A stretch of 64,000 nucleotides of DNA from an uncultured Spirochaetota bacterium (GCA_963781885.1 CAWAHW010000002.1:96001-160000); one strand, 5' to 3'; shown: positions 45,234-58,280, counted from the first letter of the stretch. The notes: generated from the letters alone by a model not told the origin. Program-made: numbers and translations.

Positions 45234-46039
45234 GCCGGGCGCTCGTGACCGGCGCCTCCCGCGGCATCGGGAAGGCCATTGCCGCTTCACTGGTCGCTGC
45301 CGGATACGAGGTTGTCGGCACGAGCCGGCATCCCGAGGCGCTTCCTCCGCACGACAGGATTGACGGCGTCCGCTACCTTGCACTCGACCTGTTGGAGGCC
45401 GGAAGCATCGCGTCGCTTGCGCGGGAAGCCGGACCGGTGGACGTCCTGGTGAGCAATGCCGGGCAGAGCCAGATCGGCGCGGTGGAAGAGCTGCCGGTCG
45501 ACGAGGTGAGAAGGCTTTTCGAGGCGAATCTCTTTGGCGCGCTGCGGGTGATACAGCTATTTCTTCCCGGCATGCGCCAGAGGCGCGCGGGAAAAGTCAT
45601 TGCGGTCGCTTCCATGGCCGCCGTCACACCCGTGCCTTTTCTCTCCTCCTACGCGGCGAGCAAGGCTGCCCTTGTGGCGATGATGCGCGGGCTGCGCTAT
45701 GAGACGGCATCCTTCGGGATCACGGTCGCCGTCGTTGCCCCCTTCGATATCAACACGAGCATTCCCCTGGACATCCGCTACGATGAGCGCTCGGCCTACA
45801 TGCCCGACATCGCCACGGTGCACCAGAGGCGCGACAAGGCCCTTGCCGAAGCGCCGGGACCCGATCTGGTCGCACGCAAGGTGATCTCCATCCTCCGCTC
45901 GCGCCGGCCCGGCTTCTTTCATCCCGTGGGCCGCGGGGCGGGGCTGAACGCGTTTCTCCTGCGGCATCTGCCCGCGAGGACAGTGGAGCGCATCATCCGG
46001 CGCCTCTTTGGGCTTCCGCGAGGGGCAGCTTCACGGTAA
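45230..46039 (+). CDS. Short-chain dehydrogenase/reductase (CapC 3-dehydrocapnine reductase-like by context)
   Basis: TGASRGIG, SNAG and YAASK. Translationally coupled to the acyltransferase. Confidence 0.8.
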   Translation: MSRALVTGASRGIGKAIAASLVAAGYEVVGTSRHPEALPPHDRIDGVRYLALDLLEAGSIASLAREAGPVDVLVSNAGQSQIGAVEELPVDEVRRLFEANLFGALRVIQLFLPGMRQRRAGKVIAVASMAAVTPVPFLSSYAASKAALVAMMRGLRYETASFGITVAVVAPFDINTSIPLDIRYDERSAYMPDIATVHQRRDKALAEAPGPDLVARKVISILRSRRPGFFHPVGRGAGLNAFLLRHLPARTVERIIRRLFGLPRGAASR

Positions 46040-47828
46040 AACTGGTCTTGCTGCCGGGCACACTGGAAAAGCTGAGGCTGCCGCGGTGGGCCTCCACGAT
46101 GTGCTGGCAGATCGACAAGCCCAGCCCCGTGTTTGTCTTCGTCATCTTCGTGCTGAAAAAAGGCGTGAAAATCCGGTCCTGGATCTCGCGGGGGATGCCG
46201 TAGCCGTTGTCCATGACGGTCACCTCCGCGCAGTCCTCCTCCCGGTTGTGCTGCATCGTCACCTCGATGAGACCGTGGTCCAGCACCGCCTCCACGCTGT
46301 TCATGACGAGGTTGATGAAGAGCTGCTTCAGCTTGTTCTCTTCACCGCTCACGACCAGCGGCTGCTCCGGGAAGCTTGTCCGCACCACGAGACGCTTCTG
46401 GTTCAGCTTGTGACCGAGCAGAAGGATCACCTCGCCCAGAAGCTCCCCGAGGTTCACGGTGCGGCCGTCCACCTGGCTCACGCGTGAGAAGGAGAGCAGG
46501 CTGCCGACGATCGCGACGATCCGGCTGAGCTCATTTTCGATCTTTCCGAGCTTCTCCTTCCCGTCCCCGTCCAGATCCTTCAGCTTCAGAAGCTCGACGT
46601 AGTTCTGGATGATGCCCAGCGGGTTGTTGATCTCGTGTGCCACCCCGGCGGCGAGCTCCGCGATGGAGGCGATCTTCTCCGCGCGCAGGAGGTACTCCTT
46701 CACGAAGTGGTCCATCGACACGTCTTCCAGCATGAGGATGGTCCCCGTGAACCTGTAGTCCTCGTCTTGCAGAGGGAAGCTCTTCAGGAGCAGGAAGCGT
46801 TCGTCGTTCACGGTGATGCCTTCCCAGCTGTGGCGCTCGCGGCCGACGATCTTTTCGCAGATGTCGCCGGCATCGCTCACGTGATGGACCTCCAGCATCT
46901 CGCCGATGGGCACGCGCGGCAGGACGTGATCGTCGGCGCCCAGGATGCGCCGCGCGGCCTGGTTGCTCAGGTAGATCCGGTTGTCGGTGTCCAGGATGAT
47001 CACGCCGACCGGCAGGTCGCTGATGATGCTCTCATTGTAGCGTTTGATCAGCGTGAGCTGCTGGTGCTGGCCCTCGCCCTCCTCGATGTTGAACATGAAG
47101 CTGTAGGCGAGCTTCAGGAGCTTGAACCGGTCCAGGTCGCGCACGAGCTCCGTGCCGCGCCGCTGCCCGTTCTTCAGCACCGTCACGCGGTCGGCGAACT
47201 TGAAGACCTCATCCACGCTCGTGGAGACGTAGATGATGGCCTTGTCGCGGCGGCGGTACTCGGTGAGAAGGCGGAACACCTGGTCCATCTCCTCCGAGTT
47301 CAGGCGGCTGGAGATCTCATCCACGACGAGGATGTCCGGCTCCAGGGATACGACGCGCGCGATCTCCACCATCTGCTGCTCGGCGAGGCTCAGCCGTCCG
47401 ACGGGCGTGTCCAGCGCGACGTGCACGTCGAGCTCCTCCAGCAGGTTGCGGCACCGTTCCCGCACCTCGGAGGGAAAACGCTGCCGCAGCCATACTTTCG
47501 GCAGCCTGCCCAGGGAGATGTTCTCCACGGCGTTCAGCGTCGGGATGAGGCTCAGGTTCTGGTAGACGATGCCGATGCCGTGCCGGATGGCCGCCCGGGG
47601 CGTGGGGAAATCCACCTCGCGGCCCTCCAGCAGGATCGTGCCCTTCTGCTTGCGCAGGTCGCCGCTCAGGATCTTCACGAGGCTGGATTTTCCGGAGCGT
47701 CGCTCCCCGACCAGGGCATGGATCTCCCCCGCGAACAGGTCGAAATCGACACCCTTCAGGGCGGCAACCTCGCCGAAGGAGAAATGGATGTTCTTCATCT
47801 GGAGAAGAGGAAGCCGGGGCTCCTTCAC
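45993..47828 (-). CDS. Sugar-ABC nucleotide-binding domain / PAS / NtrB-type histidine kinase fusion
   Basis: One uninterrupted ORF. NBD: GERRSGKS, IVYQNL, LSLAEQQMVEIAR, LVVDE, ADRVTVLKNG. PAS: SIISDLPVGVIILD. Kinase: AHEINNPL, QLFINLVMN, DNGYGI, FTPFFSTK, TGLGLSI. No TM helix. Confidence 0.9.
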   Translation of the reverse strand: MKEPRLPLLQMKNIHFSFGEVAALKGVDFDLFAGEIHALVGERRSGKSSLVKILSGDLRKQKGTILLEGREVDFPTPRAAIRHGIGIVYQNLSLIPTLNAVENISLGRLPKVWLRQRFPSEVRERCRNLLEELDVHVALDTPVGRLSLAEQQMVEIARVVSLEPDILVVDEISSRLNSEEMDQVFRLLTEYRRRDKAIIYVSTSVDEVFKFADRVTVLKNGQRRGTELVRDLDRFKLLKLAYSFMFNIEEGEGQHQQLTLIKRYNESIISDLPVGVIILDTDNRIYLSNQAARRILGADDHVLPRVPIGEMLEVHHVSDAGDICEKIVGRERHSWEGITVNDERFLLLKSFPLQDEDYRFTGTILMLEDVSMDHFVKEYLLRAEKIASIAELAAGVAHEINNPLGIIQNYVELLKLKDLDGDGKEKLGKIENELSRIVAIVGSLLSFSRVSQVDGRTVNLGELLGEVILLLGHKLNQKRLVVRTSFPEQPLVVSGEENKLKQLFINLVMNSVEAVLDHGLIEVTMQHNREEDCAEVTVMDNGYGIPREIQDRIFTPFFSTKMTKTNTGLGLSICQHIVEAHRGSLSFSSVPGSKTSFTVKLPLAEAQRGAG

Positions 47829-47829
47829 G

Positions 47830-49155
47830 CTAGGGCTCCAGGCCGAGCTTCTTCATCTTGTTGTACAGCGTCTTTCGATGGATGCGCAGGATTTCCGCGG
47901 CCTTGTGCTTCACGCCGTCGCTCTTCTCCAGCGCGTCGAGGATCATCTGGCGCGACACCGATTCGTAGGCATTGGCCAGGGTTGCCTGCCCGCTCACCGC
48001 GTAGTCGGTATACTGCCGCGGCAGGTCATCCACGGTGAGCTCCGTTGTTTCGCAGAAGATCACCGCGCGCTCGATGCAGTTCTTCAGCTCCCGGACATTG
48101 CCCGGCCAGTTGTGCGCCAGGAGGACCTGTCGGACCCCGGGTGAAAGCCCCTGGATCTGCTTCGAGTACTGCTCGTTGAACTGCAGGAGGAAATACCCCG
48201 CCAGGAGGCCGATGTCCTCCCGGCGCTCGCGCAGGGGCGGCAGGGCGATGCTGATCACCGACATGCGGTAGAACAGGTCCTCGCGGAAGGTGCCCGCGGC
48301 GATCATCTGCGCGATGTTCTTGTTCGTGGCGGCGATGATGCGCACGTCGGCCTTCACCGCCCGGGAGCCGCCCACGCGCGTGAGCGCGCGCTCCTGCAGG
48401 ACGCGCAGCAGCTTCGCCTGCGTGTCGAGGCTCAGGTCGCCGATCTCGTCCAGGAAGAGGCTGCCGCCGTCGGCGAGCTCGAACTTGCCCCGGTGCATCT
48501 TGTGCGCCCCGGTGAACGCCCCTTCCTCGTGACCGAAGAGCTCGCTCTCCAGCAGCGTCTCGGGTATCGCCGCGCAGTTGATCTTCACGAACGGTTTCGC
48601 GCTGCGGTGGCTGAGCGCGTGCAGGGCGTCGGCGACGAGCTCCTTGCCCGTGCCGCTCTCACCGGTGATCACGACGGAGGCATCCGTCGGGCCGACCTTG
48701 TCGATGGTGCGGAATATCTCCCGCATGCGCGGGTTGACCGACCAGACGCGGAAGCTCGGGGGAAGCAGCGGCTCCACGCGGCGGCGGAGGCCATTCGTCC
48801 GCGCGAGCTGCTCCACCTCGTTGAGGAGCTCGGGGATGCGGAGCGGCTTCTCGTAGAAGTTCATCGCCCCGTACCGCATTGCCCGCACGACGTTCTCCGC
48901 GCTCGCGAATCCCGAGATCATGATGATGGGGATCGAGCGATCCCTTTCCTTGACCTCCTTGAGCAGTGCGATCCCGTCCATCACCGGCATCTTCACGTCC
49001 ACGATGATCAGGTCGGGCGGGTCCTCAACGAGGAGGCCCGGCACCTCTTCCGGAAGCGTCGTGTGGCGCGCGCGATAGCCGTGGGACGTCAGCAGCTCGG
49101 ACAGGGAAAGGCACATCTCAATCTCATCGTCCACGATGAGAACGTTGAAGGCCAT
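47830..49155 (-). CDS. Sigma-54-dependent response regulator (NtrC family)
   Basis: Receiver VLIVDDE...DVKMP; AAA+ GESGTGKE, ELFGHEEGAFTGA, LFLDEIG, FREDLFYR, WPGNVREL; Fis-type HTH. Confidence 0.95.
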   Translation of the reverse strand: MAFNVLIVDDEIEMCLSLSELLTSHGYRARHTTLPEEVPGLLVEDPPDLIIVDVKMPVMDGIALLKEVKERDRSIPIIMISGFASAENVVRAMRYGAMNFYEKPLRIPELLNEVEQLARTNGLRRRVEPLLPPSFRVWSVNPRMREIFRTIDKVGPTDASVVITGESGTGKELVADALHALSHRSAKPFVKINCAAIPETLLESELFGHEEGAFTGAHKMHRGKFELADGGSLFLDEIGDLSLDTQAKLLRVLQERALTRVGGSRAVKADVRIIAATNKNIAQMIAAGTFREDLFYRMSVISIALPPLRERREDIGLLAGYFLLQFNEQYSKQIQGLSPGVRQVLLAHNWPGNVRELKNCIERAVIFCETTELTVDDLPRQYTDYAVSGQATLANAYESVSRQMILDALEKSDGVKHKAAEILRIHRKTLYNKMKKLGLEP

Positions 49156-49268
49156 GGCGCCATGATAGGCGGCGGCGCGCCTGAAATCAAGCGCGCGCCG
49201 CGGTTGCGTGCAGGAAGCGCCGTGTTGCGTGCCCCCCGGGATTCGTGTACAACGAGTGGTGAGAAGCC

Positions 49269-50360
49269 ATGCGCGGGGACACATCGACACGCCGGAGAGC
49301 TCTCGCCTGCGCCCTCTGCGTCACTCTCGCCGCCCTTGCCGCCGCCTCCTGTTCCGGGGCGAATGCCGGGCGGAAAGGCGCCTCTCCTCCCATCCGCATC
49401 GGATTCCTCGTGAAGCGCCCGGAAGAGCTGTGGTTCCAGAATGAATGGCGCTATGCGCAGAAATGCGCCGATACCAATGGCTTCCAGCTCATCAAGATCG
49501 GCGTGCCGGACGGCGACAAGGTGCTCGCCGCCATCGACAATCTTGCCGCGCAGGGCGCCCAGGGCTTCGTGATATGCACCCCTGACGTGCGCCTGGGACC
49601 GGCCATCCTCTCCCGCGCCTCCACCTATGGCATGAAGGTATTCACCGTCGACGACCAATTCGTGGGTCCTGACGGCAGCTTCATCAAGGTGCCCTACATG
49701 GGCATCTCCTCGCCGCAGATCGGCGCGGCGGTCGCGAACGCCCTCTACGACGAGTATCAGAAGCGCCAGTGGCGGCCCGAGGAGACGGCGGCACTCGCCG
49801 TGACATTCGACGAGCTGAACACCGTCAAGGAGCGCACCGACGCTGCGGCGGAAACCCTGAAGGCGCGAAGCTTCCCCGCGGACCGCATCTTCCGCATTCC
49901 CGAAAAAACGGCGGACCTGCCCGGCGCATTCGACGCCGCGAGCATCGCCCTGTCCCAGCACGCCGAGGTAAAGCGCTGGCTGGTTTTTTCCATCAACGAC
50001 GAGGGGGTGCTGGGGGCCATTCGCGCGATGGAAAACCGCGGCTTCAACGCCGACACGGTGATCGGCATCGGCATTGGCTCCAGCCTGGGCATCATCGAGT
50101 TTCGCAAGCGCGAGATCACGCCCTTCTTCGCGTTCTGTCTCATCAACCCATACATGCACGGCTTCCAGACCACCGAATGGCTCTACCGGTGGGTGAGCGC
50201 CGGCATCCAGCCGCCGATGGACACCCGCACCCCCGGTACGATCGTGACGCGCGACGACTATCGGGACATCTTCCAGAGCCGCGGACTTGAGGAGCTGCTC
50301 CTCCCGCAGCCGGGCGACGCGAAGCCGCAGGACGCCGACAGGGGACGGGGCGAATCATGA
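49269..50360 (+). CDS. Sugar ABC substrate-binding lipoprotein, L-arabinose-binding AraF-like
   Basis: Lipobox LAAASC; IGFLVKRPEELWFQNEW, GFVICTPDVRLGPAI, VDDQF and VPYMGIS resemble AraF. Confidence 0.85.
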   Translation: MRGDTSTRRRALACALCVTLAALAAASCSGANAGRKGASPPIRIGFLVKRPEELWFQNEWRYAQKCADTNGFQLIKIGVPDGDKVLAAIDNLAAQGAQGFVICTPDVRLGPAILSRASTYGMKVFTVDDQFVGPDGSFIKVPYMGISSPQIGAAVANALYDEYQKRQWRPEETAALAVTFDELNTVKERTDAAAETLKARSFPADRIFRIPEKTADLPGAFDAASIALSQHAEVKRWLVFSINDEGVLGAIRAMENRGFNADTVIGIGIGSSLGIIEFRKREITPFFAFCLINPYMHGFQTTEWLYRWVSAGIQPPMDTRTPGTIVTRDDYRDIFQSRGLEELLLPQPGDAKPQDADRGRGES

Positions 50361-51334
50361 ACGCCCGCGCGGATGCCCTTTCTCGCGGCCGGCTCGTCGC
50401 CGCCCGGGTGCGCGGCGCCTGGAGCCGCTACACGAGCCTCTTGATCCTGGTGGTCATCGTCGCCGCCTCTTCGATATTCGTCCCGCACTTCCTCTCTTGG
50501 ATCAACATCATCGGCTTGGGCCTGTCGATCTCCATGGTGGGCATGGTGGCCTGCTCGATGCTCCTGTGCCTGGCCTCCGGTGGATTCGATCTCTCGGTGG
50601 AATCGGTCGTCGCATTCTCCGGGGTGCTCGCCGCGGTCGTGATCAATTCCAGCGGCAGCGTGCTCGGTGGCGTCCTGGCAGGCATACTGGCCGGCGGTCT
50701 TGTCGGCGCGGTCAACGGGGCCATCGTCTCCTACTTTTCCCTGAATCCGCTGATCACCACCCTCGCCGTCATGCAGATCGTGCGCGGTCTCGGCTTTCTG
50801 GTCTCCCAGGGCTCGGCAGTGGGCGTGAACAATACGGGCTTTTTCGTTCTGGGTGCCGGGCGCATCCTGTCCATCCCGAACCCGATCTGGATCACCGTTT
50901 TTCTCATGATCCTCTTCGCGTTCGTGCTCACGCGCACCTCGTTCGGTCGCAACATGCGCGCGGTCGGGGGAAATGAGACGGCGGCGCGCTTGAAAGGGAT
51001 CGCGGTCAACCGCACGAAGATGATCGTCTATATCGTGCAGGGCTTGATCGCGGGTTTTGCCGGTGTCGTGCTCGCCTCCCGCATGACCAGCGGTCAGCCC
51101 AATACGTCCCAGGGATTCTCCATGGACGTGATTTCCGCCTGCGTCCTGGGCGGCGTATCGCTCTCGGGTGGCGTGGGGACGCTCAGCGGCACGATCATCG
51201 GTGTGCTGATCATGGGCTCCGTCCAGAATGCCATGAATCTTCTCAATATCCCGACCTTCTACCAGTACATCCTGCGCGGCTTCATCCTTCTCCTCGCCGT
51301 GCTTCTCGACCAGTTCAAACGCAGGAGCAAGTAG
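50357..51334 (+). CDS. Sugar ABC permease, AraH/RbsC-like
   Basis: FDLSVES, NPLITTLA, FGRNMRAVGGN..AARL.G, SRMTSGQP and ISACVLGGVSLSGG. Confidence 0.9.
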   Translation: MNARADALSRGRLVAARVRGAWSRYTSLLILVVIVAASSIFVPHFLSWINIIGLGLSISMVGMVACSMLLCLASGGFDLSVESVVAFSGVLAAVVINSSGSVLGGVLAGILAGGLVGAVNGAIVSYFSLNPLITTLAVMQIVRGLGFLVSQGSAVGVNNTGFFVLGAGRILSIPNPIWITVFLMILFAFVLTRTSFGRNMRAVGGNETAARLKGIAVNRTKMIVYIVQGLIAGFAGVVLASRMTSGQPNTSQGFSMDVISACVLGGVSLSGGVGTLSGTIIGVLIMGSVQNAMNLLNIPTFYQYILRGFILLLAVLLDQFKRRSK

Positions 51335-51345
51335 CCGCCGCGCCG

Positions 51346-51399
51346 CAACGTGCACGAATGTGCACGTCGACTATTGACGAGCGTGGCGCCACGTGCACG
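51346..51399. promoter_or_regulatory. Candidate enhancer (UAS) for the sigma-54 activator
   Basis: Inverted repeat CAACGTGCAC-GAAT-GTGCACGTCG (51346-51369) and a related CGTGGCGCCACGTGCACG (51382-51399), about 80-135 bp upstream of the -24 box. Confidence 0.5.
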
Positions 51400-51480
51400 A
51401 CGTCCTGGGCAGCGCGACTGGGGCACATTCTATTTGCTTACCATGAATGCAGTTGACTCATTTTCCCCGCGCGCTGCCCT

Positions 51481-51496
51481 TGGTACGCCGCTTGCA
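51481..51496 (+). promoter_or_regulatory. Sigma-54 (-24/-12) promoter
   Basis: TGGTAC-GCCGC-TTGCA versus consensus TGGCAC-N5-TTGCA. GG and GC are exactly 10 bp apart. Intergenic, upstream of a GAGGAGG RBS. Confidence 0.75.
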
Positions 51497-51539
51497 CCAT
51501 GAGCAGCGAGGCCCGGAACGGCTCGAGGAGGCTCAGGCG

Positions 51540-52327
51540 GTGGCGACGGCAGGCGACTACAAGACAGCAATCCGCATGGAAGGCATCGAGAAGTACTTCG
51601 GCAATGTCGCGGCGTTGCGCGGCATCAACCTGGAGGTCGGCAGGGACGAGGTCATCGGGTTGATCGGCGACAACGGGGCAGGAAAGTCCACGCTGATCAA
51701 GATCATGACGGGTGTCTTCCCCCCACCTCGGGTGCAATGTACCTGCGCGACCAGCCCGTATCCTTCTCGGGCTATAGCGTCCGTGAGGCGCACAAGCGCG
51801 GCATCGAGACGGTCTACCAGGACAAGTCACTCGGGGAGAAGCAGGTCCTCTGGAGGAACTTCTTCATCGGTCGGGAGATCACGCTCCCCTTCGGCTTCAT
51901 CGACGTGAAGAAGGAAAAGAAGATCGCCCAGGGCATCATGGTGGATACCATCGGGTTCCGCGGCAAGGGCATCACCGTGGAGTCGCGCGCAAGCAAGCTC
52001 TCCGGCGGCGAGCGCCAGGGCGTGGCCATCGGCCGCGCCATGCATTTCGAGGCGGACCTGATCATCCTGGATGAGCCCACGGTGGCCCTCTCCCTGAAAG
52101 AGGTGCGCAAGGTGCTCTCCTTCGTGCAGAAGATCAAGGAGGCCGGCAAGGCCTGCATCTACATCACGCACGATCTGCAGGATGTCTACCAGATATCGGA
52201 CCGTTTCATCGTGCTGGATAGAGGGGAGATCGTGGCAAGCATCGCGAAGAACGAGATCAGCCTGAAGGAGCTGGACACGTTCCTGCTCGAATACTCGCAC
52301 GGCCTGAAAGACAAGGTGCAGCCATGA
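51540..52327 (+). CDS. Sugar ABC transporter ATP-binding protein, single NBD (frameshift in the C-run near 51720)
   Basis: GDNGAGKST, IETVYQD, LSGGERQ, ILDEPT and YITH, all canonical. GTG start after GAGGAGG. Confidence 0.87.
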
Positions 52328-53379
52328 AACACGGAAACTCGCGCTTCGCATTCATCGGGAAGATCGAGGGGCTGCCGATCGCGGCGGTGCTTGCCATCCT
52401 CTACGTCATCTTCATCTTCACCGCGCCGTCGGTCTTTACCGGATATCGCATCTACATGTCTTTCTTCCAGACCGTGCCGCCGATGCTCGTGCTTGCAATC
52501 GGCCTGACCTTCATCATCACCGCGGGGGAGATCGACCTGAGCTTCCCCGCCGTCGTGGCGCTGTCGGGTTTCGTCTTTACCTGGGTTTTCAAGACCTACC
52601 ACGCCCCATGGATCGGCTTCATCCTCGCACTCGCCTCGGGCGCCCTGGTGGGGTATATCAACGGGATCCTGGTGGCGCGCCTGCGGGTGCCGTCCATCAT
52701 GGCAACCCTGGCGACGCAGTTCTTCTGGTACGGCGTGACGCTCCTGATCGCGGGCGGTCTCCAGATCAATATCGAAGAGATCCAGACCAATCTCATCCAC
52801 ACCGTGTTCGTCGGTCGGATCTTCGGCGTCTTCCCCGCGCAGGCGCTCTGGTCGCTCGGTGTCGTGATAGTGTTCTGGTTCATCCTGAACCGGCACAAGT
52901 TCGGCGAGGCGATCATGTTCATCGGCGACAATGCCGACGTCGCGCGCGTAATGGGCATCAACGTCGAGACGACGCGGATCAAGCTGTTCACCATGCATGG
53001 CGTGCTCGCCGCCTTTGCCGGGCTCCTCCTGACGATAGAGATCAACGTCTTCTTCCCGACGCAGGGACAGGGCATGCTCCTGCCGGTCATGGCGGCTGTC
53101 TTCATCGGCGGCACGTCGATCGCGGGCGGCCAGGGCGCCATCGTGGGCACCTTTTTCGGCTCGTACATCATCGGCTCCCTGGAAGCAGGCGTCGTGGCAA
53201 CAGGCATCGGCGGCTACTGGGTGCAGCTCGTGGAAGGAGTCGTGATGGCAGCCTCCGTGATCCTCAACGTGATCATCGGGGACGAGGGTGCCGCCCTTCT
53301 GGCGCGGACCGCCCGCAAGTGGGCCGTGCCGGAACAGGCGCCGCCCGGCAAGGAGCCCGCGGCTCACGGCGATTCATGA
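52324..53379 (+). CDS. Sugar ABC permease (RbsC family)
   Basis: AGEIDLSF, VPSIMATL, IGDN..AR.MGIN and AAVFIGGTSIAGGQG. Confidence 0.9.
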   Translation: MKHGNSRFAFIGKIEGLPIAAVLAILYVIFIFTAPSVFTGYRIYMSFFQTVPPMLVLAIGLTFIITAGEIDLSFPAVVALSGFVFTWVFKTYHAPWIGFILALASGALVGYINGILVARLRVPSIMATLATQFFWYGVTLLIAGGLQINIEEIQTNLIHTVFVGRIFGVFPAQALWSLGVVIVFWFILNRHKFGEAIMFIGDNADVARVMGINVETTRIKLFTMHGVLAAFAGLLLTIEINVFFPTQGQGMLLPVMAAVFIGGTSIAGGQGAIVGTFFGSYIIGSLEAGVVATGIGGYWVQLVEGVVMAASVILNVIIGDEGAALLARTARKWAVPEQAPPGKEPAAHGDS

Positions 53380-53510
53380 GGAACAGGCGCGCCGTTGTGC
53401 GCGGTCTTTGAATCCTGAGCGAAAGGGGGAGGTGCAAACTGAGGCTTTCTTGTCTGCGGCCGCGCCGTGATGGCGCCGGCTTAAATACCTTTCTCAAGAA
53501 GGGGGAATCT

Positions 53511-54491
53511 GTGCGGAAGATGAAATGGGTCATTCTGGCTTTGGTGATCTTCGGGGCGCTGTTCGCAGCCCAGACCTGGGCGGCGGACAAGCAGCTCGTC
53601 ATCTACATGCAGTGCGGCGGGACGCAGGGCGACGGCGCCACGCTTGCGCGCACCAACGGCGCACGGGCGGCGGCCGCGGCGAACAACGTCAAGCTGATCG
53701 AACAGTACTCCAAGTGGGATCAGCAGACGATGATCGACCAGTTCAAGCAGGCCATGGCGGCCAACCCTGACGGCATCGAGATCATGGGCCACCCGGGCGA
53801 GGCAGCATTTGCGGCGCTCGTCGACCAGGCCGAGGCACAGGGCATCATCGTCACCAGCGGCAACAACCCGCTGCCGAACATCGAGGCGAAGTACCACGAT
53901 AAGGGCTTTGGGTACGCGGGCGCCGATCTCTACCAGGGCGGCTACCTCACGGGCCAGTCGATGGTCAAGGCAGGCAACCTGAAGGCCGGTGACAAGGCTC
54001 TCGTGTACGACATCTGGCACCAGGAAGGCCGCAGCCGCAGCAGCCAGGGCGTCTATGACGCGCTGGCAAAGGCCGGACTCATCGTCGACAAGCTCGACGT
54101 GTCCGCGGCGGTGGACAGCGACACCTCGCTTGCCATCCCCATCCTCACGGCGTATCTCCAGGCGCATCCCGACCTCAAGGCCATCGGCACCCAGCACGGC
54201 AGCGTGACCGCAATCCTGCCGAAGGTGCTCCAGGCGGCAGGGAAGAAGCCCGGCGACATCATCTGCGGCGGTATCGACCTTTCGCCCGCCACGGTAAGCG
54301 CCATCCAGGGCGGCTGGATTACCGCCAGCTTCGACCAGGTGCTGTATCTCCAGGGATACCTCCCGGTCCTCCAGATCGTCCTCACAAAGCGCTACCTGAT
54401 CCCCGGTCTGCACATCGACACCGGCGTCGGCACCGTGACCCCGCTGAACGTGGCCACGATCAAGCCCCTCATCGACCAGGGAATCCGCTAG
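53511..54491 (+). CDS. Sugar ABC substrate-binding protein (periplasmic binding protein type I)
   Basis: Signal peptide ending TWA-A; ANPDGI, QAEAQGIIV, AYLQAHPD, GIDLSP and DQVLYLQGYLPV. Confidence 0.87.
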   Translation: MRKMKWVILALVIFGALFAAQTWAADKQLVIYMQCGGTQGDGATLARTNGARAAAAANNVKLIEQYSKWDQQTMIDQFKQAMAANPDGIEIMGHPGEAAFAALVDQAEAQGIIVTSGNNPLPNIEAKYHDKGFGYAGADLYQGGYLTGQSMVKAGNLKAGDKALVYDIWHQEGRSRSSQGVYDALAKAGLIVDKLDVSAAVDSDTSLAIPILTAYLQAHPDLKAIGTQHGSVTAILPKVLQAAGKKPGDIICGGIDLSPATVSAIQGGWITASFDQVLYLQGYLPVLQIVLTKRYLIPGLHIDTGVGTVTPLNVATIKPLIDQGIR

Positions 54492-54511
54492 ACGGAGCAT
54501 GTTTGTGTGAT

Positions 54512-54544
54512 GTGCCCCCGCGAAAGCGGGGGCACTTTCTTTTT
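54512..54544 (+). terminator. Rho-independent terminator
   Basis: Perfect 10-bp stem GTGCCCCCGC-GAAA-GCGGGGGCAC followed by TTTCTTTTT. Confidence 0.88.
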
Positions 54545-54562
54545 CACGCGATCGATACGCCG

Positions 54563-55372
54563 TCACACGCTGATATTTTTTCTCTGGAACGACCACAGGG
54601 AGCCGCCCACCAGCGCGAGCGTCGCGGCAAGCGGCACGGCGATGTCGACGCCGGACAGCCCATGCTGCATCACGTCGGCGGTGTCGTAGTACGCGTAGAA
54701 GGAGATCGCGCGGAGCGCGTGGACGAACGAGCCGGTGGCCGTCCGCCCGAGCACGTCAATGAACCAGCTCGCGATGAGAAAAACAACCGCGATGGCCGCC
54801 GCATGCGACTTTCGCCGGGCACAGGTCGCGACGAAGACAGTGAAGGCGAGCACGATCAGCGTCCCCGGCAGGATGTACAGGCTCGCATCGATGATGGTTC
54901 GGGTGGCGATATGCACCGCGGGGGTGGCGCGAAGACTGAGGAAGATCGCGCCGGTGCTGATGACAATGACCCCGACGGCCAGAACGCCGGATGCGAGGAA
55001 TTTCTCCAGCACGACGCGCCAGCGGGGCACGGGCATGCTGAGCAGCACGTCCATGATCCCCCGGTCTTCCTCGTTGGCCGTGACATTCAGTCCCATGATG
55101 ATCGCGTAGACGCCGAATATGACGAGGATGATCGCGTAGTACTGGTTGTTGAGGAAGCCCGCCGGGGAGGCCAGGAACGCGAGATCCCCGCCGCCCACCA
55201 TCTGGACGACGAACAGGGGCATTCTGGAAATCGCCTCCGCGGTCGCGCGCATGCCATTGGCATCCGGCACGGCGATGATGTTGAGGAGCGCGATCAACCC
55301 GATGCCGATTCCCCAATAGATCATCGACCGCCACCCGCGCCGCAGCGTCTCGAAGAATATCGCACGAGGCAT
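54563..55372 (-). CDS. ABC-2 type permease
   Basis: ANEEDRGIMDVLLSMPVPRWRVVLEKF and FQRKNI; paralogue of the adjacent permease. Confidence 0.85.
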   Translation of the reverse strand: MPRAIFFETLRRGWRSMIYWGIGIGLIALLNIIAVPDANGMRATAEAISRMPLFVVQMVGGGDLAFLASPAGFLNNQYYAIILVIFGVYAIIMGLNVTANEEDRGIMDVLLSMPVPRWRVVLEKFLASGVLAVGVIVISTGAIFLSLRATPAVHIATRTIIDASLYILPGTLIVLAFTVFVATCARRKSHAAAIAVVFLIASWFIDVLGRTATGSFVHALRAISFYAYYDTADVMQHGLSGVDIAVPLAATLALVGGSLWSFQRKNISV

Positions 55373-55382
55373 GCCGTCCTCC

Positions 55383-56192
55383 TTACAGGCCGATGTTCCG
55401 CCGCTGAAAGAGCCACGTGCCGCCCGCCATCAGCACGACCGTGACGACGCCCAGCACGAGCACATTGCCCCAGTCCAGGCCGTGGCGGATCACGGCCGTG
55501 CTGTCGTAGTAGCTGTAGAACGAGAGAAAGCGCAGCGTGCCGGCGAATGAGGCGCTCGCCTGGCGTCCGATGCTGTCGATGAAGTAGCTGCCAAGGATCA
55601 CCACGATGGCGACTGCCGCCGCAACATTCTTGCGGCGGATCACGGACGTGAGAAGCACCGTCATCGCGATCACGACGAGGGTGCTTGGCAGCATGTTGAG
55701 GGTCGTTTCCAGCAGCCTGACCTGGTCGATGGACAATGCGGGCGATGCCCGCAGACCGATCCACAGTCCGCCGAAGGTCAGGGCGATGATGCCCGCGATG
55801 ATGACGACGAAGGCCAGGAACTTTTCCAGCACCAGGCGCCAGCGGGAAACGGGCAGGCTCAACAGCACGTCCATGATCCTGCTGTCTTCCTCGTTCGCCG
55901 TGATGTTCAAGCCCGCAATCACCCCGTAGGCCGCCAGGATGAGCAGGGCGTAGCTGAAGAAGATCATGTTCAGGAACCCCGTCGGCGTCGCCATCGAGGC
56001 GGCGTCCTCTCCCCCGAACATGGCGAGCATGGCGGGCGGCACGCTTTGAAAGGCGCGCGCCATGTCCTTCAGCATGTCGGCGTTGGGGACGATCAGGGCC
56101 ACCGACAATCCCAGCGCGCCGATCCCCAGCCCCCACCAGAGCATCTGCATCCAGTTGCGCCTCAGGGTCTCCTCGAATACCGCCCCGGTCAT
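55383..56192 (-). CDS. ABC-2 type permease
   Basis: ANEEDSRIMDVLLSLPVSRWRLVLEKF and FQRRNI. Confidence 0.85.
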   Translation of the reverse strand: MTGAVFEETLRRNWMQMLWWGLGIGALGLSVALIVPNADMLKDMARAFQSVPPAMLAMFGGEDAASMATPTGFLNMIFFSYALLILAAYGVIAGLNITANEEDSRIMDVLLSLPVSRWRLVLEKFLAFVVIIAGIIALTFGGLWIGLRASPALSIDQVRLLETTLNMLPSTLVVIAMTVLLTSVIRRKNVAAAVAIVVILGSYFIDSIGRQASASFAGTLRFLSFYSYYDSTAVIRHGLDWGNVLVLGVVTVVLMAGGTWLFQRRNIGL

Positions 56193-57142
56193 ACCGCCAT
56201 CTCCGCGGTCGCGCGATGATTGTTCTGCATGGCGGGCGAATCGCCGTAATAGGTGAGGAATATCTCTTCCAGCGTCGGCTCCTGGATCTGCATGTCGACG
56301 ATATAGGCCGCGTCGACCGCCCGGATCAGAGGGTCGAAATCCCCCGTCAGCTTGAGGCGGAGCCTGTCGCCGCTCGCCGACACGTCCGTCACGCCGCTGA
56401 GGCCCGCCACCGCGCCAAGAGGCGCCGCGGCGCGGAACTGGAACGTCACCCAGCGGAAGTCGGTGTGCATCATGTCGCTCACCGTTTTCACCTCCTTGAG
56501 CTGCCCGCTGCGCAGGATCCCGACACGGTCGCAGATCTCCTGCACCTCGTTGAGGACGTGGGAGGACAGGAAGACCGTGCAGCCGTCTTCCCGCGCTTCC
56601 CGCATGAGCTGGAGGAATATCTGCTGCATGAGCGGATCGAGGCCGTTGGTCGGCTCATCGAGGATGAGCAGCTCCGGCCTGCTCATCAGAGCGAGGATCA
56701 GACCGAGCTTGCGCTTGTTGCCGCTGGAGTAGCTGCGCACCTTCTTGCCCGGGTCGAATTCCAGGCGCTCGGCAAGGTTAGTGACGTATTTCATGTCCGG
56801 GCCGCCGCGCAGGCTGCCGACGTAGTGGATGACCTGGCGGGCCGTCAGGTTTTCCCACAGGCTGAGCTCGCCGGGGAGAAAGCCGATCCGCTTGTGCAGC
56901 GCGACGCTGTGCTGCCGGACGTCCATGCCCAGGATGGAGGCGTGACCCGCCGTGGGACGGATCAGGTCCAGCAGAAGCCTGATCGTGGTGGTTTTCCCCG
57001 CCCCGTTCGGTCCAAGGTACCCGAAGATCTCACCCGGCTGGATACTGAGGGTGAGGGAGTCCAGCGCGGGCTTCGCTTTTTTCCCGCCCCTGTAGACCAT
57101 TGTCAGGTTGTCCGTCTGGATCACTGGCGTCCGTGTCATCAT
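56189..57142 (-). CDS. ABC transporter ATP-binding protein (exporter type)
   Basis: GPNGAGKTT, YSSGNKRK, LDEPTNGLDP, LSSH and PTLEEIFL. Confidence 0.92.
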   Translation of the reverse strand: MMTRTPVIQTDNLTMVYRGGKKAKPALDSLTLSIQPGEIFGYLGPNGAGKTTTIRLLLDLIRPTAGHASILGMDVRQHSVALHKRIGFLPGELSLWENLTARQVIHYVGSLRGGPDMKYVTNLAERLEFDPGKKVRSYSSGNKRKLGLILALMSRPELLILDEPTNGLDPLMQQIFLQLMREAREDGCTVFLSSHVLNEVQEICDRVGILRSGQLKEVKTVSDMMHTDFRWVTFQFRAAAPLGAVAGLSGVTDVSASGDRLRLKLTGDFDPLIRAVDAAYIVDMQIQEPTLEEIFLTYYGDSPAMQNNHRATAEMAV

Positions 57143-57167
57143 CGCTCTCCCCCTTTTCTCCACCTGC

Positions 57168-58280
57168 TCATTGTTTTTGTCCCGATCCCGGTGCGTCGCG
57201 CCCCGGCATCGTGAAATCCTCAAACGGCTTTTTCCCTTTCGCAACGTCGTCTATCACCTTGCCCAGCGAAAGGTCCTGGACCGCCGCGGACGGCAGGAGC
57301 ACGATCGTTCCGTTCTTCCGGATCCCCTCATAGGTGATGCTCATGCCGCGCAGCTGCAGGGCAGTCGGGTTGTCGCGATAACGCTTCGATGCTTCGACGT
57401 AGCTGTCGGCGACCTCCTGCTCCGCTTCCGCAAGGATGAGACGGGATTGCCGTTCGCGCTGGGCTTGTGCCTGCCGGGAGAGGGCATCCTCCAGCTCTTT
57501 CGAGATGACGATGTCGGTGATGCCGATGGAGAGGATCGTGATTCCCCACGGGCTCGTGCGCGCGTCGAGAAACTCCTGGATCTCCTTGCCCAGCCTTTCC
57601 TGCTCGGAGAGGAGGCTCGCCAAGTCGTGTTTGCCGATGGCGTTTCGCAGCGCCGCGTGGGCCGCGAGCGTCACCGATTCCAGATAATCCGCGACCTCCA
57701 GCGTGGCCTTTTCCGCGTCCCACACCATCCAGAAGGCGATGGCATCGACGCTGACCGGAACCGTGTCCTTCGTGAGGGTCGTTTCGTGATGGAACTCCAC
57801 CACCCGGATGCGGGTGTCCATCAACCGGGCGGCCCGGTCGACAAGCGGCGCGATGAGGAAGACGCCCGGTCCCCGCAGGCCGGCAAACCTTCCCAGGCGG
57901 AACATGACGACCTTTTCCCACTGCTGGGCGAGCTGGATCGTCGGCATGAGGATGAACCCTGCTCCCATCACTGCGAGCGGTGCGAGAAACGCGTCGCCCA
58001 ACGCCCAGCGCAGCGCCGCTCCCGCCGCCACGATGAATGCAAGATCGAGAATCCACAGCGGGAAGAAGTACAGAATGAGGACCGCGATGAAGCAGCCGAG
58101 AACAACACATCCCAGCGCTTCGAGCTGAAACGACGCGCCGCCGAGGATCGGGATCAGGGCGCCCGCCCCGACCGCGATCACGAAAAGGAGGAAACCCAGG
58201 CTGGAAAGCCTGAAATCCCTTTCCGTCCCGCGCCTGTCGACCTGACCCCCAGGGGGGAGCTCACGAGTGATGAGCGTCAT
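57168..58280 (-). CDS. SPFH/stomatin (slipin) family membrane protein with extended hydrophobic N-terminus
   Basis: QWEKVVMFRLGRF..GPG, TLTKDTVPVSVDA, RQAQAQRERQSR and PTALQLR. Confidence 0.88.
   Translation of the reverse strand: MTLITRELPPGGQVDRRGTERDFRLSSLGFLLFVIAVGAGALIPILGGASFQLEALGCVVLGCFIAVLILYFFPLWILDLAFIVAAGAALRWALGDAFLAPLAVMGAGFILMPTIQLAQQWEKVVMFRLGRFAGLRGPGVFLIAPLVDRAARLMDTRIRVVEFHHETTLTKDTVPVSVDAIAFWMVWDAEKATLEVADYLESVTLAAHAALRNAIGKHDLASLLSEQERLGKEIQEFLDARTSPWGITILSIGITDIVISKELEDALSRQAQAQRERQSRLILAEAEQEVADSYVEASKRYRDNPTALQLRGMSITYEGIRKNGTIVLLPSAAVQDLSLGKVIDDVAKGKKPFEDFTMPGRDAPGSGQKQ

What the first reader, a model, noticed from the sequence alone, without database searches (positions are those of the whole stretch)
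45993..54544. Sugar ABC importer rebuilt as a receptor: ABC-NBD/PAS/histidine kinase fusion with an ATPase-less binding protein and permease, a sigma-54 activator, and a second complete importer
Seen: one intact 611-aa ORF joins a RbsA/AraG-type nucleotide-binding domain (about 47828-47095) to a PAS domain and an NtrB-type kinase, with no TM segment. It is coupled to an NtrC-type regulator with an intact GAFTGA loop. Divergently, an AraF-like lipoprotein overlaps an AraH-like permease with no araG gene between them. A -24/-12 promoter then precedes a second ABC importer with a canonical ATPase. Established: araFGH-type importers need an NBD pair, and histidine kinases dimerise. The transporter-coupled sensors I know (BceAB-BceRS, Pst-PhoUR, ChvE-VirA) use separate polypeptides. 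Inference: the kinase dimer supplies the two NBDs that dock on the permease. Sugar-loaded binding protein then drives NBD movement, sets kinase activity and switches on the real uptake operon. I know of no characterised system with this architecture but cannot exclude one.
Basis: partly seen in the sequence, partly recalled or inferred. Interest (0 to 1): 0.93.

Follow-up and report, generated by a model that had tools for sequence, protein, structure and literature searches.

The report
Sugar-transporter ATPase domain fused to kinase
A soluble bacterial signalling kinase carries the motor domain of a sugar ABC transporter as its only input and sits beside an arabinose binding protein and permease that have lost their own motor, so a transporter may here serve as a signal receptor that switches on a second sugar importer.

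Summary
Window 45993-47828(-) encodes an intact, TM-free 611-aa ABC-NBD/PAS/HisKA/HATPase_c kinase, with an NtrC-type activator (GAFTGA) directly upstream. Divergent from them lie AraF and AraH genes that overlap, with no araG. An exact -24/-12 promoter follows, then a single-NBD ATPase, permease and binding protein. That ATPase is frameshifted in the assembly at a C-run. A near-identical short-read contig carries the extra C, so this is probably an assembly error.

The fusion is a real family: 705 clusters at 50% identity match its NBD-PAS junction. The activator gene lies directly upstream in 60 of 61 testable loci, and no locus with enough flank lacked a CUT2 sugar transporter.

Most relatives (42 of 74) sit beside a transporter with its own tandem ATPase. 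The ATPase-less AraF-AraH layout is confined to the window's subclade, where it is conserved down to 56% identity.

That the pair controls the sigma-54-driven importer is well supported. That the kinase's NBDs dock on AraH is plausible but unproven: complex prediction gave weak support only.

I found no paper describing such fusions. Earlier notes of this scan found the family on other DNA.

The parts
45993..47828 (-). 611-aa soluble histidine kinase: ABC NBD + PAS + HisKA + HATPase_c
   Evidence: ORF. Pfam domains. No TM segment. 119 of the 120 best homologues carry PF00005+PF00512+PF02518.
47094..47828 (-). NBD (residues 1-245), CUT2 ATPase N-half type. Walker A is GERRSGKS, with Q90, signature LSLAEQQ and Walker B VVDE. 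The H-loop His is replaced (VSTS).
   Evidence: Sequence. Family alignment. NCBIfam AraG N-half, 197 bits over residues 6-224.
46713..47033 (-). PAS domain (residues 266-372)
   Evidence: Pfam PAS, PAS_4 and PAS_9. AF2 model pLDDT is 73-90 here. The preceding linker 237-269 is below 50.
46005..46703 (-). DHp (HisKA, His398) and catalytic HATPase_c domains (residues 376-608)
   Evidence: Pfam. H398, N510, D540/G542/G544 and G568/G570 are invariant in 27 family members. The closest solved relative, 3a0r, covers PAS-HK only.
47830..49155 (-). NtrC-type sigma-54 activator (REC + AAA+ with GAFTGA + HTH_8). Its stop lies 1 nt before the kinase start.
   Evidence: Pfam and NCBIfam. Start inferred from homologues and the sequence. 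GAFTGA at residue 212.
49203..49232 (.). Two copies of GTTGCGTGC, 21 bp apart, in the 113-bp divergent intergenic region. Function unknown.
   Evidence: Read. Not tested further.
49269..50360 (+). AraF-like L-arabinose-binding lipoprotein (SBP1)
   Evidence: PDB 1abe/6abp, 307 bits, E about 1e-90. Signal peptide with Cys29. 9 of 12 recalled ABP pocket residues are kept.
50357..51334 (+). AraH permease (PERM1), overlapping araF by ATGA. No araG.
   Evidence: NF008441, 438.7 bits against a cut-off of 378. It is the only AraH over the cut-off in the genome. Listed homologues below the closest clade are about 60-70% identical, many named AraH by their sources.
51350..51399 (+). Three GTGCACG motifs (51350, 51360, 51393), the likely enhancer sites of the activator
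   Evidence: Conserved in L001, and TGCAC repeats occur at the same place in L107. This is the only one of 83 sigma-54-like sites in the genome with 2 or more GTGCAC within 220 nt upstream.
51481..51496 (+). -24/-12 sigma-54 promoter TGGTACGCCGCTTGCA
   Evidence: Exact match. Same element in the L001 tail. rpoN is present in the genome. In 72 loci, 31 of 48 such sites lie upstream of a CUT2 gene, against 2.28 expected.
51576..52327 (+). Single-NBD ABC ATPase (ATPase2) with canonical motifs. The frame is broken at C-run 51719-51724 in this assembly.
   Evidence: 68-70% identical to the intact 261-aa L107 gene. An X1 contig has an extra C after 51718.
52324..53379 (+). CUT2 permease (PERM2) of the regulated importer
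   Evidence: Pfam BPD_transp_2. The other 119 of the 120 best clusters listed are 75-89% identical.
53511..54491 (+). Sugar-binding protein (SBP2) of unknown specificity
   Evidence: Pfam Peripla_BP_4. Only weak PDB matches, 36.7 bits or less.
54512..54535 (+). Intrinsic terminator-like hairpin (10 pairs, 9 G-C, T-rich tail) ending the five-gene plus-strand unit
   Evidence: No such hairpin lies between 51334 and 51576.

Best explanation
The seven genes form a sugar-sensing circuit.

Well supported: the soluble NBD-PAS kinase phosphorylates the NtrC-type activator. The activator binds the GTGCACG sites at 51350-51399. From there it opens the sigma-54 promoter at 51481, which drives the ATPase2-PERM2-SBP2 importer.

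Inferred input: the kinase dimer places its two N-half-type NBDs on the coupling helices of an AraH permease dimer, taking the place of the missing AraG. Arabinose-loaded AraF docking on AraH changes how the NBDs close around ATP. That movement passes through the linker and the PAS domain to the DHp helices and sets kinase activity.

The NBD lacks the H-loop histidine, and both of its composite sites would use a degenerate signature. The AraF-AraH-kinase complex is therefore expected to signal rather than transport.

In most other family members the same kind of kinase would visit, or compete for, the permease of a complete transporter.
For: Shown:
- The architecture and motifs are as stated.
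- The activator gene lies directly upstream in 60 of 61 fusions with 1500 bp or more of upstream sequence. The 61st has it 257 bp away.
- No locus with 4 kb or more on both sides lacked CUT2 genes.
- 31 of 48 sigma-54-like sites in 72 loci lie within 400 nt upstream of a CUT2 gene on the same strand, against 2.28 expected.
- In the own genome, only 1 of 83 sigma-54-like sites has 2 or more GTGCAC within 220 nt upstream, and it is this one. The background rate for such windows is 0.00065.
- rpoN is present.

For docking:
- The NBD is of the CUT2 N-half kind. Mean identity is 29.5% to the N-halves and 20.6% to the C-halves of neighbouring tandem ATPases.
- Walker A GK[ST] is kept in 66 of 66 fusions and Walker B Asp-Glu in 64 of 66. 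Q90 and N103 are invariant in 27.
- SBP1 and PERM1 are true AraF and AraH. Their orthologues in G139 and G281 (45-61% identical) lie in araF-araG(tandem)-araH operons.
- The own genome has no AraG over the cut-off. All 11 of its tandem CUT2 ATPases sit beside their own permeases.
- The AraG-less layout with an internal UAS and promoter recurs in L107. Identities there are fusion 56%, SBP 68% and permease 63%, in a very AT-rich sequence.
- Predicted complex of PERM1 with NBD residues 1-250: weak support. Score 0.59, best of 3 controls 0.00. The mark was reached by 58 of 80 solved complexes and 2 of 110 mismatched pairs. At 0.60 or under it was reached by only 7 of those 80 solved complexes and by both mismatches that passed. 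The runs agree in at least 86% of contacts and the partner pLDDT is at least 76. Many ABC NBD-permease complexes are solved, so this may show likeness only.
- A fusion's NBD ranks nearer to its own neighbour's N-half (median rank 10 of 34) than to its C-half (19.5 of 34). This effect is small.
Against: - 42 of 74 fusion genes sit beside a transporter with its own tandem ATPase, and 8 beside one with a single or cut ATPase. The family as a whole therefore does not need the kinase to complete a transporter.
- ATPase2 lies 240 bp downstream of AraH on the same strand with no terminator-like hairpin between. It could energise AraH.
- The complex prediction is only 'weak support', and its controls do not test another ABC NBD.
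- The NBD-PAS linker (237-269) has pLDDT below 50 in the monomer model, so no rigid coupling is shown.
- The loss of the H-loop His is shared with relatives that have complete transporters, so it is not tied to the AraG-less state.
- The coupling-helix change in PERM1 (EAA to TAA, 5 of 6 close relatives) is not shared by L107.
- There are no expression, binding or phosphotransfer data.
Confidence: 0.5

Rival explanations
1. AraF-AraH is an ordinary arabinose importer that borrows the neighbouring single-NBD ATPase2. The five plus-strand genes are one unit with an internal inducible promoter. The kinase senses in some other way, or only samples the permease in passing.
For: - The five genes share one strand, with no terminator between PERM1 and ATPase2 and one strong terminator after SBP2.
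- The five-gene block is inherited as a unit in L107.
- PERM1 is about 60-70% identical to AraH homologues outside its closest clade, with no sign of decay.
- One ATPase serving several sugar ABC permeases is known elsewhere (MsmX and MsiK, recalled).
Against: - AraH orthologues examined pair with tandem AraG (2 of 2 loci).
- PERM2-type permeases are abundant on their own: the other 119 of the 120 best clusters listed are 75-89% identical, against 6 other fusion clusters at 78% or more.
- SBP-PERM-single-NBD sets stand alone in L096 and L131. ATPase2 therefore belongs to a self-sufficient module.
- A sigma-54 promoter with its UAS separates the two halves in WIN, L001 and L107.
Confidence: 0.2
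2. The NBD never touches a permease. It is a cytoplasmic ATP-driven dimerisation or energy-state sensor, or it binds another soluble partner. The sugar transporter is only the output of the system.
For: - Most relatives have complete transporters.
- The signature motif is degenerate, and the H-loop His is missing at the canonical column in 17 of 66 fusions. This fits a non-catalytic nucleotide switch.
- The PAS domain could carry the real ligand.
- The docking prediction is weak.
Against: - The association with CUT2 transporters held in every locus with enough flank, and the NBD is specifically of the CUT2 N-half type. A generic energy sensor has no reason for either.
- The AraG-less AraF-AraH pair has been kept under selection beside the kinase across 56%-identity relatives. 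This reading leaves that pair without any ATPase of its own.
Confidence: 0.2
3. The kinase's NBD pairs with the single-NBD ATPase2 (in other loci, with the transporter's ATPase). This heterodimer has one consensus and one degenerate ATP site, like the two halves of AraG, and so reads the transporter's ATPase cycle.
For: - The N-half-type NBD has a good Walker A and a degenerate signature. ATPase2 has a canonical LSGGERQ. Together they would mimic the asymmetry of a tandem CUT2 ATPase (asymmetry recalled).
Against: - Histidine kinases dimerise through DHp, which favours two like NBDs side by side (established knowledge).
- The NBD is only 28% identical to ATPase2.
- Most relatives have tandem ATPases with no free half to pair with.
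- Not tested directly.
Confidence: 0.07
4. The fusion is an assembly or annotation artefact, or a decaying pseudogene.
For: The assembly does carry at least one probable homopolymer error.
Against: - The ORF is uninterrupted.
- The same architecture and length recur in 119 of the 120 best homologues.
- 108 of the 150 best junction matches are 585-642 aa.
- 705 clusters match the junction at E of 1e-10 or better.
Confidence: 0.01

Closest known systems
BceRS-BceAB type transporter/kinase co-sensing (Bacillus)
   Same: An ABC transporter's activity is read by a histidine kinase that has no ligand-binding domain of its own. The response regulator then raises transporter expression. I saw passages of PMC6978683, and the search listing only of bioRxiv 10.1101/2020.02.28.969956.
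   Different: In Bce the kinase is a separate membrane protein that contacts the permease, the transporter is an exporter-type with its own ATPase, and the regulator is OmpR-type (recalled). Here the kinase is soluble and carries an NBD itself, the partner is a binding-protein-dependent CUT2 importer, and the output is sigma-54 dependent.
CbrA (SLC5 transporter domain fused to a histidine kinase, Pseudomonas)
   Same: A transport-protein module and a PAS/HisKA/HATPase kinase lie in one polypeptide, paired with an NtrC-family activator (CbrB). I saw the abstract start and passages of PMC7096432.
   Different: CbrA fuses the membrane permease itself, a secondary transporter. Here the fused part is the cytoplasmic ATPase domain of a primary (ABC) transporter, and the permease and binding protein are separate genes.
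PstSCAB-PhoU-PhoR and MalK-MalT (recalled, not read here)
   Same: The state of an ABC importer's NBD is passed on to a transcription system.
   Different: Those systems use separate polypeptides and an adaptor or a regulatory domain. The NBD remains a working transport ATPase.
AraFGH L-arabinose ABC importer (E. coli; 1abe)
   Same: SBP1 and PERM1 are AraF and AraH by score.
   Different: AraG is missing from the operon, and no AraG over the family cut-off exists in the genome.
Binding-protein-assisted kinases: XylFII-LytS, ChvE-VirA, LuxP-LuxQ (recalled)
   Same: A periplasmic sugar-binding protein without transport of its own feeds a histidine kinase that induces a sugar ABC transporter.
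   Different: There the binding protein touches the kinase's periplasmic domain directly. Here the kinase has no periplasmic or membrane part, so a permease would have to carry the signal across the membrane.

Membership tests
Catalytic ABC transporter NBD (PF00005) | Walker A lysine and Walker B Asp-Glu | tested here: met
   GERRSGKS (K47) and VVDE (D170, E171). Kept in 66 of 66 and 64 of 66 family members.
Catalytic ABC transporter NBD (PF00005) | Q-loop glutamine | tested here: met
   Q90 is invariant in 27 and in 12 sequences.
Catalytic ABC transporter NBD (PF00005) | Canonical LSGGQ signature | tested here: not met
   LSLAEQQ. This resembles the degenerate signature that I recall for N-halves of CUT2 tandem ATPases.
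Catalytic ABC transporter NBD (PF00005) | H-loop histidine | tested here: not met
   VSTS in the window. 17 of 66 family members lack His at this column, 10 of them in the window's clade.
HisKA-type histidine kinase (NtrB/AtoS-like) | Phospho-accepting His in the H-box, plus N, G1 and G2 boxes | tested here: met
   H398, N510, D540-G542-G544 and G568-G570 are invariant in 27. Pfam HisKA and HATPase_c.
AtoS (NF008468 equivalog) | Score over the curated cut-off across the whole protein | tested here: not met
   230.1 bits against a cut-off of 646, and only residues 256-607 match. The source name 'AtoS' is therefore not warranted.
NtrC-family sigma-54 activator | REC domain, AAA+ domain with GAFTGA, HTH_8 | tested here: met
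   Pfam. GAFTGA at residue 212.
Sigma-54 promoter | GG and GC elements spaced as TGGCAC-N5-TTGCW upstream of a gene, with rpoN in the genome | tested here: met
   Exact match at 51481-51496, 80 nt before the ATPase2 start codon. rpoN at G000:C1:412595-413089, 188 bits.
AraFGH L-arabinose importer | AraF binding protein | tested here: met
   307 bits against 1abe/6abp. 9 of 12 pocket residues, which I recalled, are conserved.
AraFGH L-arabinose importer | AraH permease | tested here: met
   NF008441, 438.7 bits against a cut-off of 378.
AraFGH L-arabinose importer | AraG tandem ATPase in the operon or genome | tested here: not met
   No gene lies between araF and araH. The best AraG-model hit in the genome scores 562 bits, under the 689 cut-off. 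All 11 tandem ATPases are beside other permeases. The genome is 92.6% complete, and 16 kb of it is withheld.
Transporter-coupled (Bce-like) sensing | Signalling depends on physical contact between kinase and transporter | tested here: inconclusive
   The predicted complex gave weak support only: 0.59 against a best control of 0.00. A binding assay cannot be done with these tools.

The most novel reading that the evidence does not exclude
AraF, AraH and the NBD-kinase form a four-part, non-transporting ABC 'receptor'. A binding-protein-dependent importer has been turned into a transmembrane signalling device. ATP-dependent NBD closure, triggered by the sugar-loaded binding protein, directly drives histidine-kinase autophosphorylation. 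Several hundred related kinases use the same plug-in mechanism on complete CUT2 transporters.
Probability: 0.4. Interest if true: 0.9.

Novelty: new variant of a known kind. Interest (0 to 1): 0.75.

Why it matters
How a transporter tells a kinase that substrate is present is known only for a few systems, all built from separate proteins.

Here the suspected contact is written into a single polypeptide. The family is large: 705 clusters at 50% identity match the junction.

One subclade offers a natural experiment. The transporter's own ATPase is gone, while the binding protein and permease are conserved.

If docking is shown, the system would give a simple, reconstitutable model for allosteric coupling between ABC NBD closure and kinase activation. 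It would also be a modular sugar biosensor. In addition, many genes now named 'AtoS' or 'ABC ATP-binding protein' would need re-annotation.

Tried and rejected
1. The genome-contig scan with the single protein gave 1 true fusion (L001) among 80 loci. The other 79 were ordinary CUT2 ATPases or kinases hit through generic motifs. I replaced it with whole-genome search and a junction-specific alignment.

2. Eight literature searches and passages of five papers gave no description of an ABC-NBD/histidine-kinase fusion. PMC3495685, PMC7755780 and PMC1183210 were irrelevant. Supplements and subscription journals were not searched.

3. I tested whether the NBD was recruited recently from the local AraG. 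Rejected: it is 37% and 31% identical to the AraG of G139 and G281, no closer than to other CUT2 ATPases in the own genome (30-40%). The family tree shows one old fusion.

4. I tested whether loss of the H-loop His marks the AraG-less state. Rejected: the same clade includes loci with complete transporters.

5. I tested whether the binding pocket of SBP1 was remodelled in this clade. Rejected: the two recalled positions that differ from E. coli ABP (N232, D235) also differ in AraF of G139, which sits in a normal araFGH operon.

6. I looked for clade-specific changes in the PERM1 coupling helix. They are present in 5 of 6 close relatives but not in L107, so they carry no weight.

7. The runs X2-X4 gave only pieces of mostly 85-95% likeness from other organisms. 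I draw nothing on expression or habitat from them.

8. The look-up of earlier notes near this place found nothing.

9. The flanking genes are an aminotransferase, a PALP enzyme, an ABC-2 exporter and a Band_7 protein. They show no link to arabinose.

Full report
**What is in the window**

The region is G+C rich (0.60-0.69).

On the minus strand, an NtrC-type activator (47830-49155) is followed one base later by a 611-aa ORF (45993-47828). Pfam places four domains in that ORF: ABC_tran at residues 24-172, PAS at 266-370, HisKA at 390-450 and HATPase_c at 496-604. NCBIfam aligns residues 6-224 to the N-terminal half of AraG (197 bits), and almost as well to YtfR, AlsA and RbsA. Residues 256-607 align to AtoS at 230 bits, far below its cut-off of 646. 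The protein has no hydrophobic stretch of TM quality: the maximum 19-residue hydropathy is 1.31, against 2.54 in the permease next door. The activator has REC, a sigma-54 AAA+ domain with GAFTGA at residue 212, and HTH_8.

On the plus strand, 113 bp away, a lipoprotein-type binding protein (49269-50360) scores 307 bits against E. coli L-arabinose-binding protein. It overlaps by ATGA a permease (50357-51334). That permease passes the AraH equivalog cut-off, 438.7 against 378 bits. No ATPase gene lies between them.

After a 241-bp gap come a single-NBD ATPase, a second permease and a second binding protein. A strong terminator-like hairpin at 54512-54535 ends the unit.

**The correction**

The second ATPase has canonical Walker A, Q-loop, LSGGERQ, Walker B and H-loop. 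In the window its frame breaks at a run of six C at 51719-51724.

Three results bear on this:
- A 247-base contig of run X1 matches 51501-51746 with no other difference and carries one more C after 51718 (depth 5.9, one contig).
- The orthologue in L107 is an intact 261-aa gene, 68-70% identical.
- An AMP-binding enzyme upstream (38264-40970) is also split between two frames.

I read the break as a probable homopolymer error of the assembly. X1 may be the source sample, and one contig is thin evidence.

**The kinase's NBD**

In an alignment of 27 family members, G41, G46, K47 and S48 (Walker A), Q90 (Q-loop), D170 and E171 (Walker B) and N103 are invariant. R44 replaces the usual second glycine of Walker A in nearly all. 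Among 66 full-length fusions from fetched loci, GK[ST] is kept in 66 and Asp-Glu in 64.

The signature is LSLAEQQ. I recall this degenerate form from the N-halves of CUT2 tandem ATPases.

The H-loop histidine is missing at its column in 17 of 66. Ten of these form one clade (support 0.994) that holds the window (VSTS). Two of the ten have a His one residue later.

A homodimer of such NBDs would have two sites with a good Walker A and a degenerate signature. That fits nucleotide-dependent closure better than fast hydrolysis. This last point is inference.

The AF2 monomer model (mean pLDDT 75.1) gives confident NBD, PAS, DHp and catalytic domains. The linker 237-269 is below 50. No solved structure covers both halves. 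The best match is the PAS-kinase 3a0r.

**A real and large family**

- Of the 120 best homologues of the whole protein, 119 carry PF00005, PF00512 and PF02518. Nearly all are about 600 aa. The exception is a 385-aa piece.
- Source names are 'AtoS' or 'ATP-binding cassette domain-containing protein', from Spirochaetes metagenome bins and one Candidatus Vecturithrix record.
- A 111-position profile spanning only the NBD-PAS junction finds 705 representatives at E of 1e-10 or better among 1.84 billion clusters at 50% identity. Of the best 150, 108 are 585-642 aa with the junction at about residues 185-310. Forty are shorter pieces and two are longer.
- In 401 genomes of the window's phylum, 10 (including the window's own) had a match at E of 1e-80 or better. 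Only three candidates per genome were scored.
- The own genome has one copy.

**Neighbourhoods**

I annotated 94 sources with profiles iterated from the window's proteins. The sources were the window, L001, 12 genome stretches and 80 metagenome loci. Seventy-two of them hold 74 fusion ORFs.

Of the 61 fusions with at least 1500 bp upstream, 60 have the activator gene directly upstream on the same strand. The 61st (L097) has it 257 bp away.

| Nearest CUT2 genes | Fusion ORFs (of 74) |
|---|---|
| Cluster with a tandem ATPase | 42 |
| Cluster with a single or contig-cut ATPase | 8 |
| CUT2 genes cut off by the contig end | 7 |
| Only a lone double-NBD ORF or a lone binding protein | 4 |
| Flanks too short to judge | 13 |

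No locus with 4 kb on both sides lacked CUT2 genes.

So the association with an activator and a CUT2 sugar transporter held in every locus sampled that had enough flank. The ATPase-less state is not general.

**The output**

In the 72 loci there are 48 sites matching TGGYAC-N5-TTGCW with at most one mismatch. Thirty-one of them, in 30 loci, lie within 400 nt upstream of a CUT2 gene on its strand. By position alone 2.28 would be expected.

In the window the exact site at 51481-51496 is preceded by three GTGCACG motifs at 51350, 51360 and 51393. In the whole 4.64-Mb genome, 83 sigma-54-like sites exist. Only this one has two or more GTGCAC within 220 nt upstream. Such windows occur at a rate of 0.00065. 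rpoN is present.

The same promoter and motifs stand after the permease in L001. In L107 the same gap holds TGCAC repeats and a TGGTAT-N5-CTGCT element.

The target of this pair is therefore most likely the ATPase2-PERM2-SBP2 operon, and probably nothing else. I rate this step at about 0.85.

**The AraG-less pair**

PERM1 is about 60-70% identical to the AraH homologues listed outside its closest clade. Two orthologues found in 401 genomes of the phylum (G139, G281; 57-61% identical) lie in araF, tandem ATPase, araH operons.

In the own genome no AraG passes its cut-off. Each of the 11 tandem CUT2 ATPases lies beside its own permease genes. The genome is 92.6% complete with 16 kb withheld, so absence is not proven.

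The whole layout recurs in L107: activator and kinase, divergent araF-araH, a gap with UAS and promoter, then ATPase, permease and binding protein. L107 is very AT-rich. Its identities to the window are 56% (kinase), 57% (activator), 68% and 63% (AraF, AraH), and 63-70% for the second importer. Comparable conservation of all seven genes argues that all are in use.

I could not fetch those contigs.

The tree places the window and L107 together (support 0.897), inside a clade whose other members have complete transporters. Loss of AraG is therefore a derived state.

SBP1 keeps 9 of the 12 ABP pocket residues that I recall. araA is present elsewhere in the genome. L-arabinose or a close relative is thus the likely ligand.

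**Does the NBD dock on a permease?**

*For:*
- The NBD is of the CUT2 N-half type: 29.5% mean identity to N-halves against 20.6% to C-halves of neighbouring ATPases.
- The association is with CUT2 permeases only.
- An AraH stands beside the kinase without a cognate ATPase.
- The predicted complex of PERM1 with NBD 1-250 gave 'weak support'. The score was 0.59 and the best of 3 controls 0.00. The mark was reached by 58 of 80 solved complexes and 2 of 110 mismatches. At 0.60 or under it was reached by only 7 of the 80 solved complexes and by both mismatches that passed. The runs agree in at least 86% of contacts, and the partner pLDDT is at least 76. ABC NBD-permease complexes are a textbook pair, and no other NBD was used as a control, so this shows compatibility at most.
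- Over 34 non-redundant loci, a fusion's NBD ranks nearer to its own neighbour's N-half (median rank 10) than chance, while the C-half of the same protein does not (19.5). The small excess sits in residues 1-35 and 85-112, the latter being the Q-loop region. Related loci are not independent and the effect is 1-3 points of identity. I give it little weight.

*Against:*
- Most relatives do not need the kinase to complete a transporter.
- ATPase2 is close by with no terminator between.
- The linker is not modelled with confidence.

**Mechanism and rivals**

My best reading (0.5): the kinase dimer takes AraG's place on AraH2. AraF with sugar changes NBD closure. The change reaches the DHp through the linker and PAS. 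The activator then fires the sigma-54 promoter of the real importer.

| Rival | Odds |
|---|---|
| AraF-AraH imports arabinose with the help of ATPase2 | 0.2 |
| The NBD is a cytoplasmic nucleotide or energy switch without permease contact | 0.2 |
| The NBD pairs with ATPase2 as a heterodimer | 0.07 |
| Artefact | 0.01 |

**Comparison with what is known**

The closest systems are Bce-type co-sensing (passages of PMC6978683) and CbrA, a permease-kinase fusion (abstract start and passages of PMC7096432). From memory I add Pst-PhoU-PhoR, MalK-MalT and the binding-protein-assisted kinases XylFII-LytS and ChvE-VirA. None of them has an ABC NBD inside the kinase.

Eight full-text searches found no description of such a fusion. 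Subscription journals and supplements were not covered.

Earlier notes of this scan found the same family on other DNA at least six times, with similar readings. They are AI notes, not independent evidence. New here is the AraG-less AraF-AraH receptor-like pair with a separate, uniquely marked sigma-54 target, conserved in a distant relative.

Noticed in passing
window 38264-40970 (+): An AMP-binding enzyme is split over two overlapping frames. 38264-40513 matches PF00501 positions 4-242, and 40077-40970 matches positions 256-384. This is probably a second indel in the assembly.
   Followed up: no
window 49203-49211 and 49224-49232: A direct repeat GTTGCGTGC, 21 bp apart, lies in the 113-bp region between the activator and araF starts. 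It differs from the GTGCACG sites before the sigma-54 promoter. Its function is unknown.
   Followed up: no
G000: C1:616376-622999, C4:3615-9043, C3:140538-151123, C6:309708-318505, C2:356794-367794: Several other NtrC-type regulators lie beside CUT2 sugar transporter clusters in the same genome, some with long binding-protein-domain ORFs of 579-802 aa. Sigma-54 control of sugar uptake seems common in this organism.
   Followed up: no
L117:201-11887 and L153:1-11263: Two activator-plus-NBD-kinase pairs lie on one contig, on either side of a single complete CUT2 transporter. They fall in different branches of the family tree.
   Followed up: partly
window 50357-51334 (PERM1 residues 204-215): The EAA coupling-helix motif reads GGNETAARLKGI instead of the usual GGNxEAARLAGI. 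The Glu is Thr in 5 of 6 sequences of the fusion-linked clade, but not in the L107 orthologue.
   Followed up: partly
proteins P0487 (1735 aa) and P0509 (851 aa): Longer proteins match the junction profile. P0487 matches 8 times through the PAS part only, while P0509 has the junction at the usual place plus about 240 extra residues.
   Followed up: no
window 54563-57244 (-): A convergent ABC-2 type exporter (two ABC2_membrane genes and an ATPase) and a Band_7 protein follow the terminator. They appear unrelated to the sugar circuit.
   Followed up: no
G000:C2:481934-486046 and C1:7813-8910: Further BPD_transp_2-type permease ORFs have no ATPase gene within 2.5 kb in the own genome. I did not check whether they are CUT2 permeases or another subfamily.
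   Followed up: no
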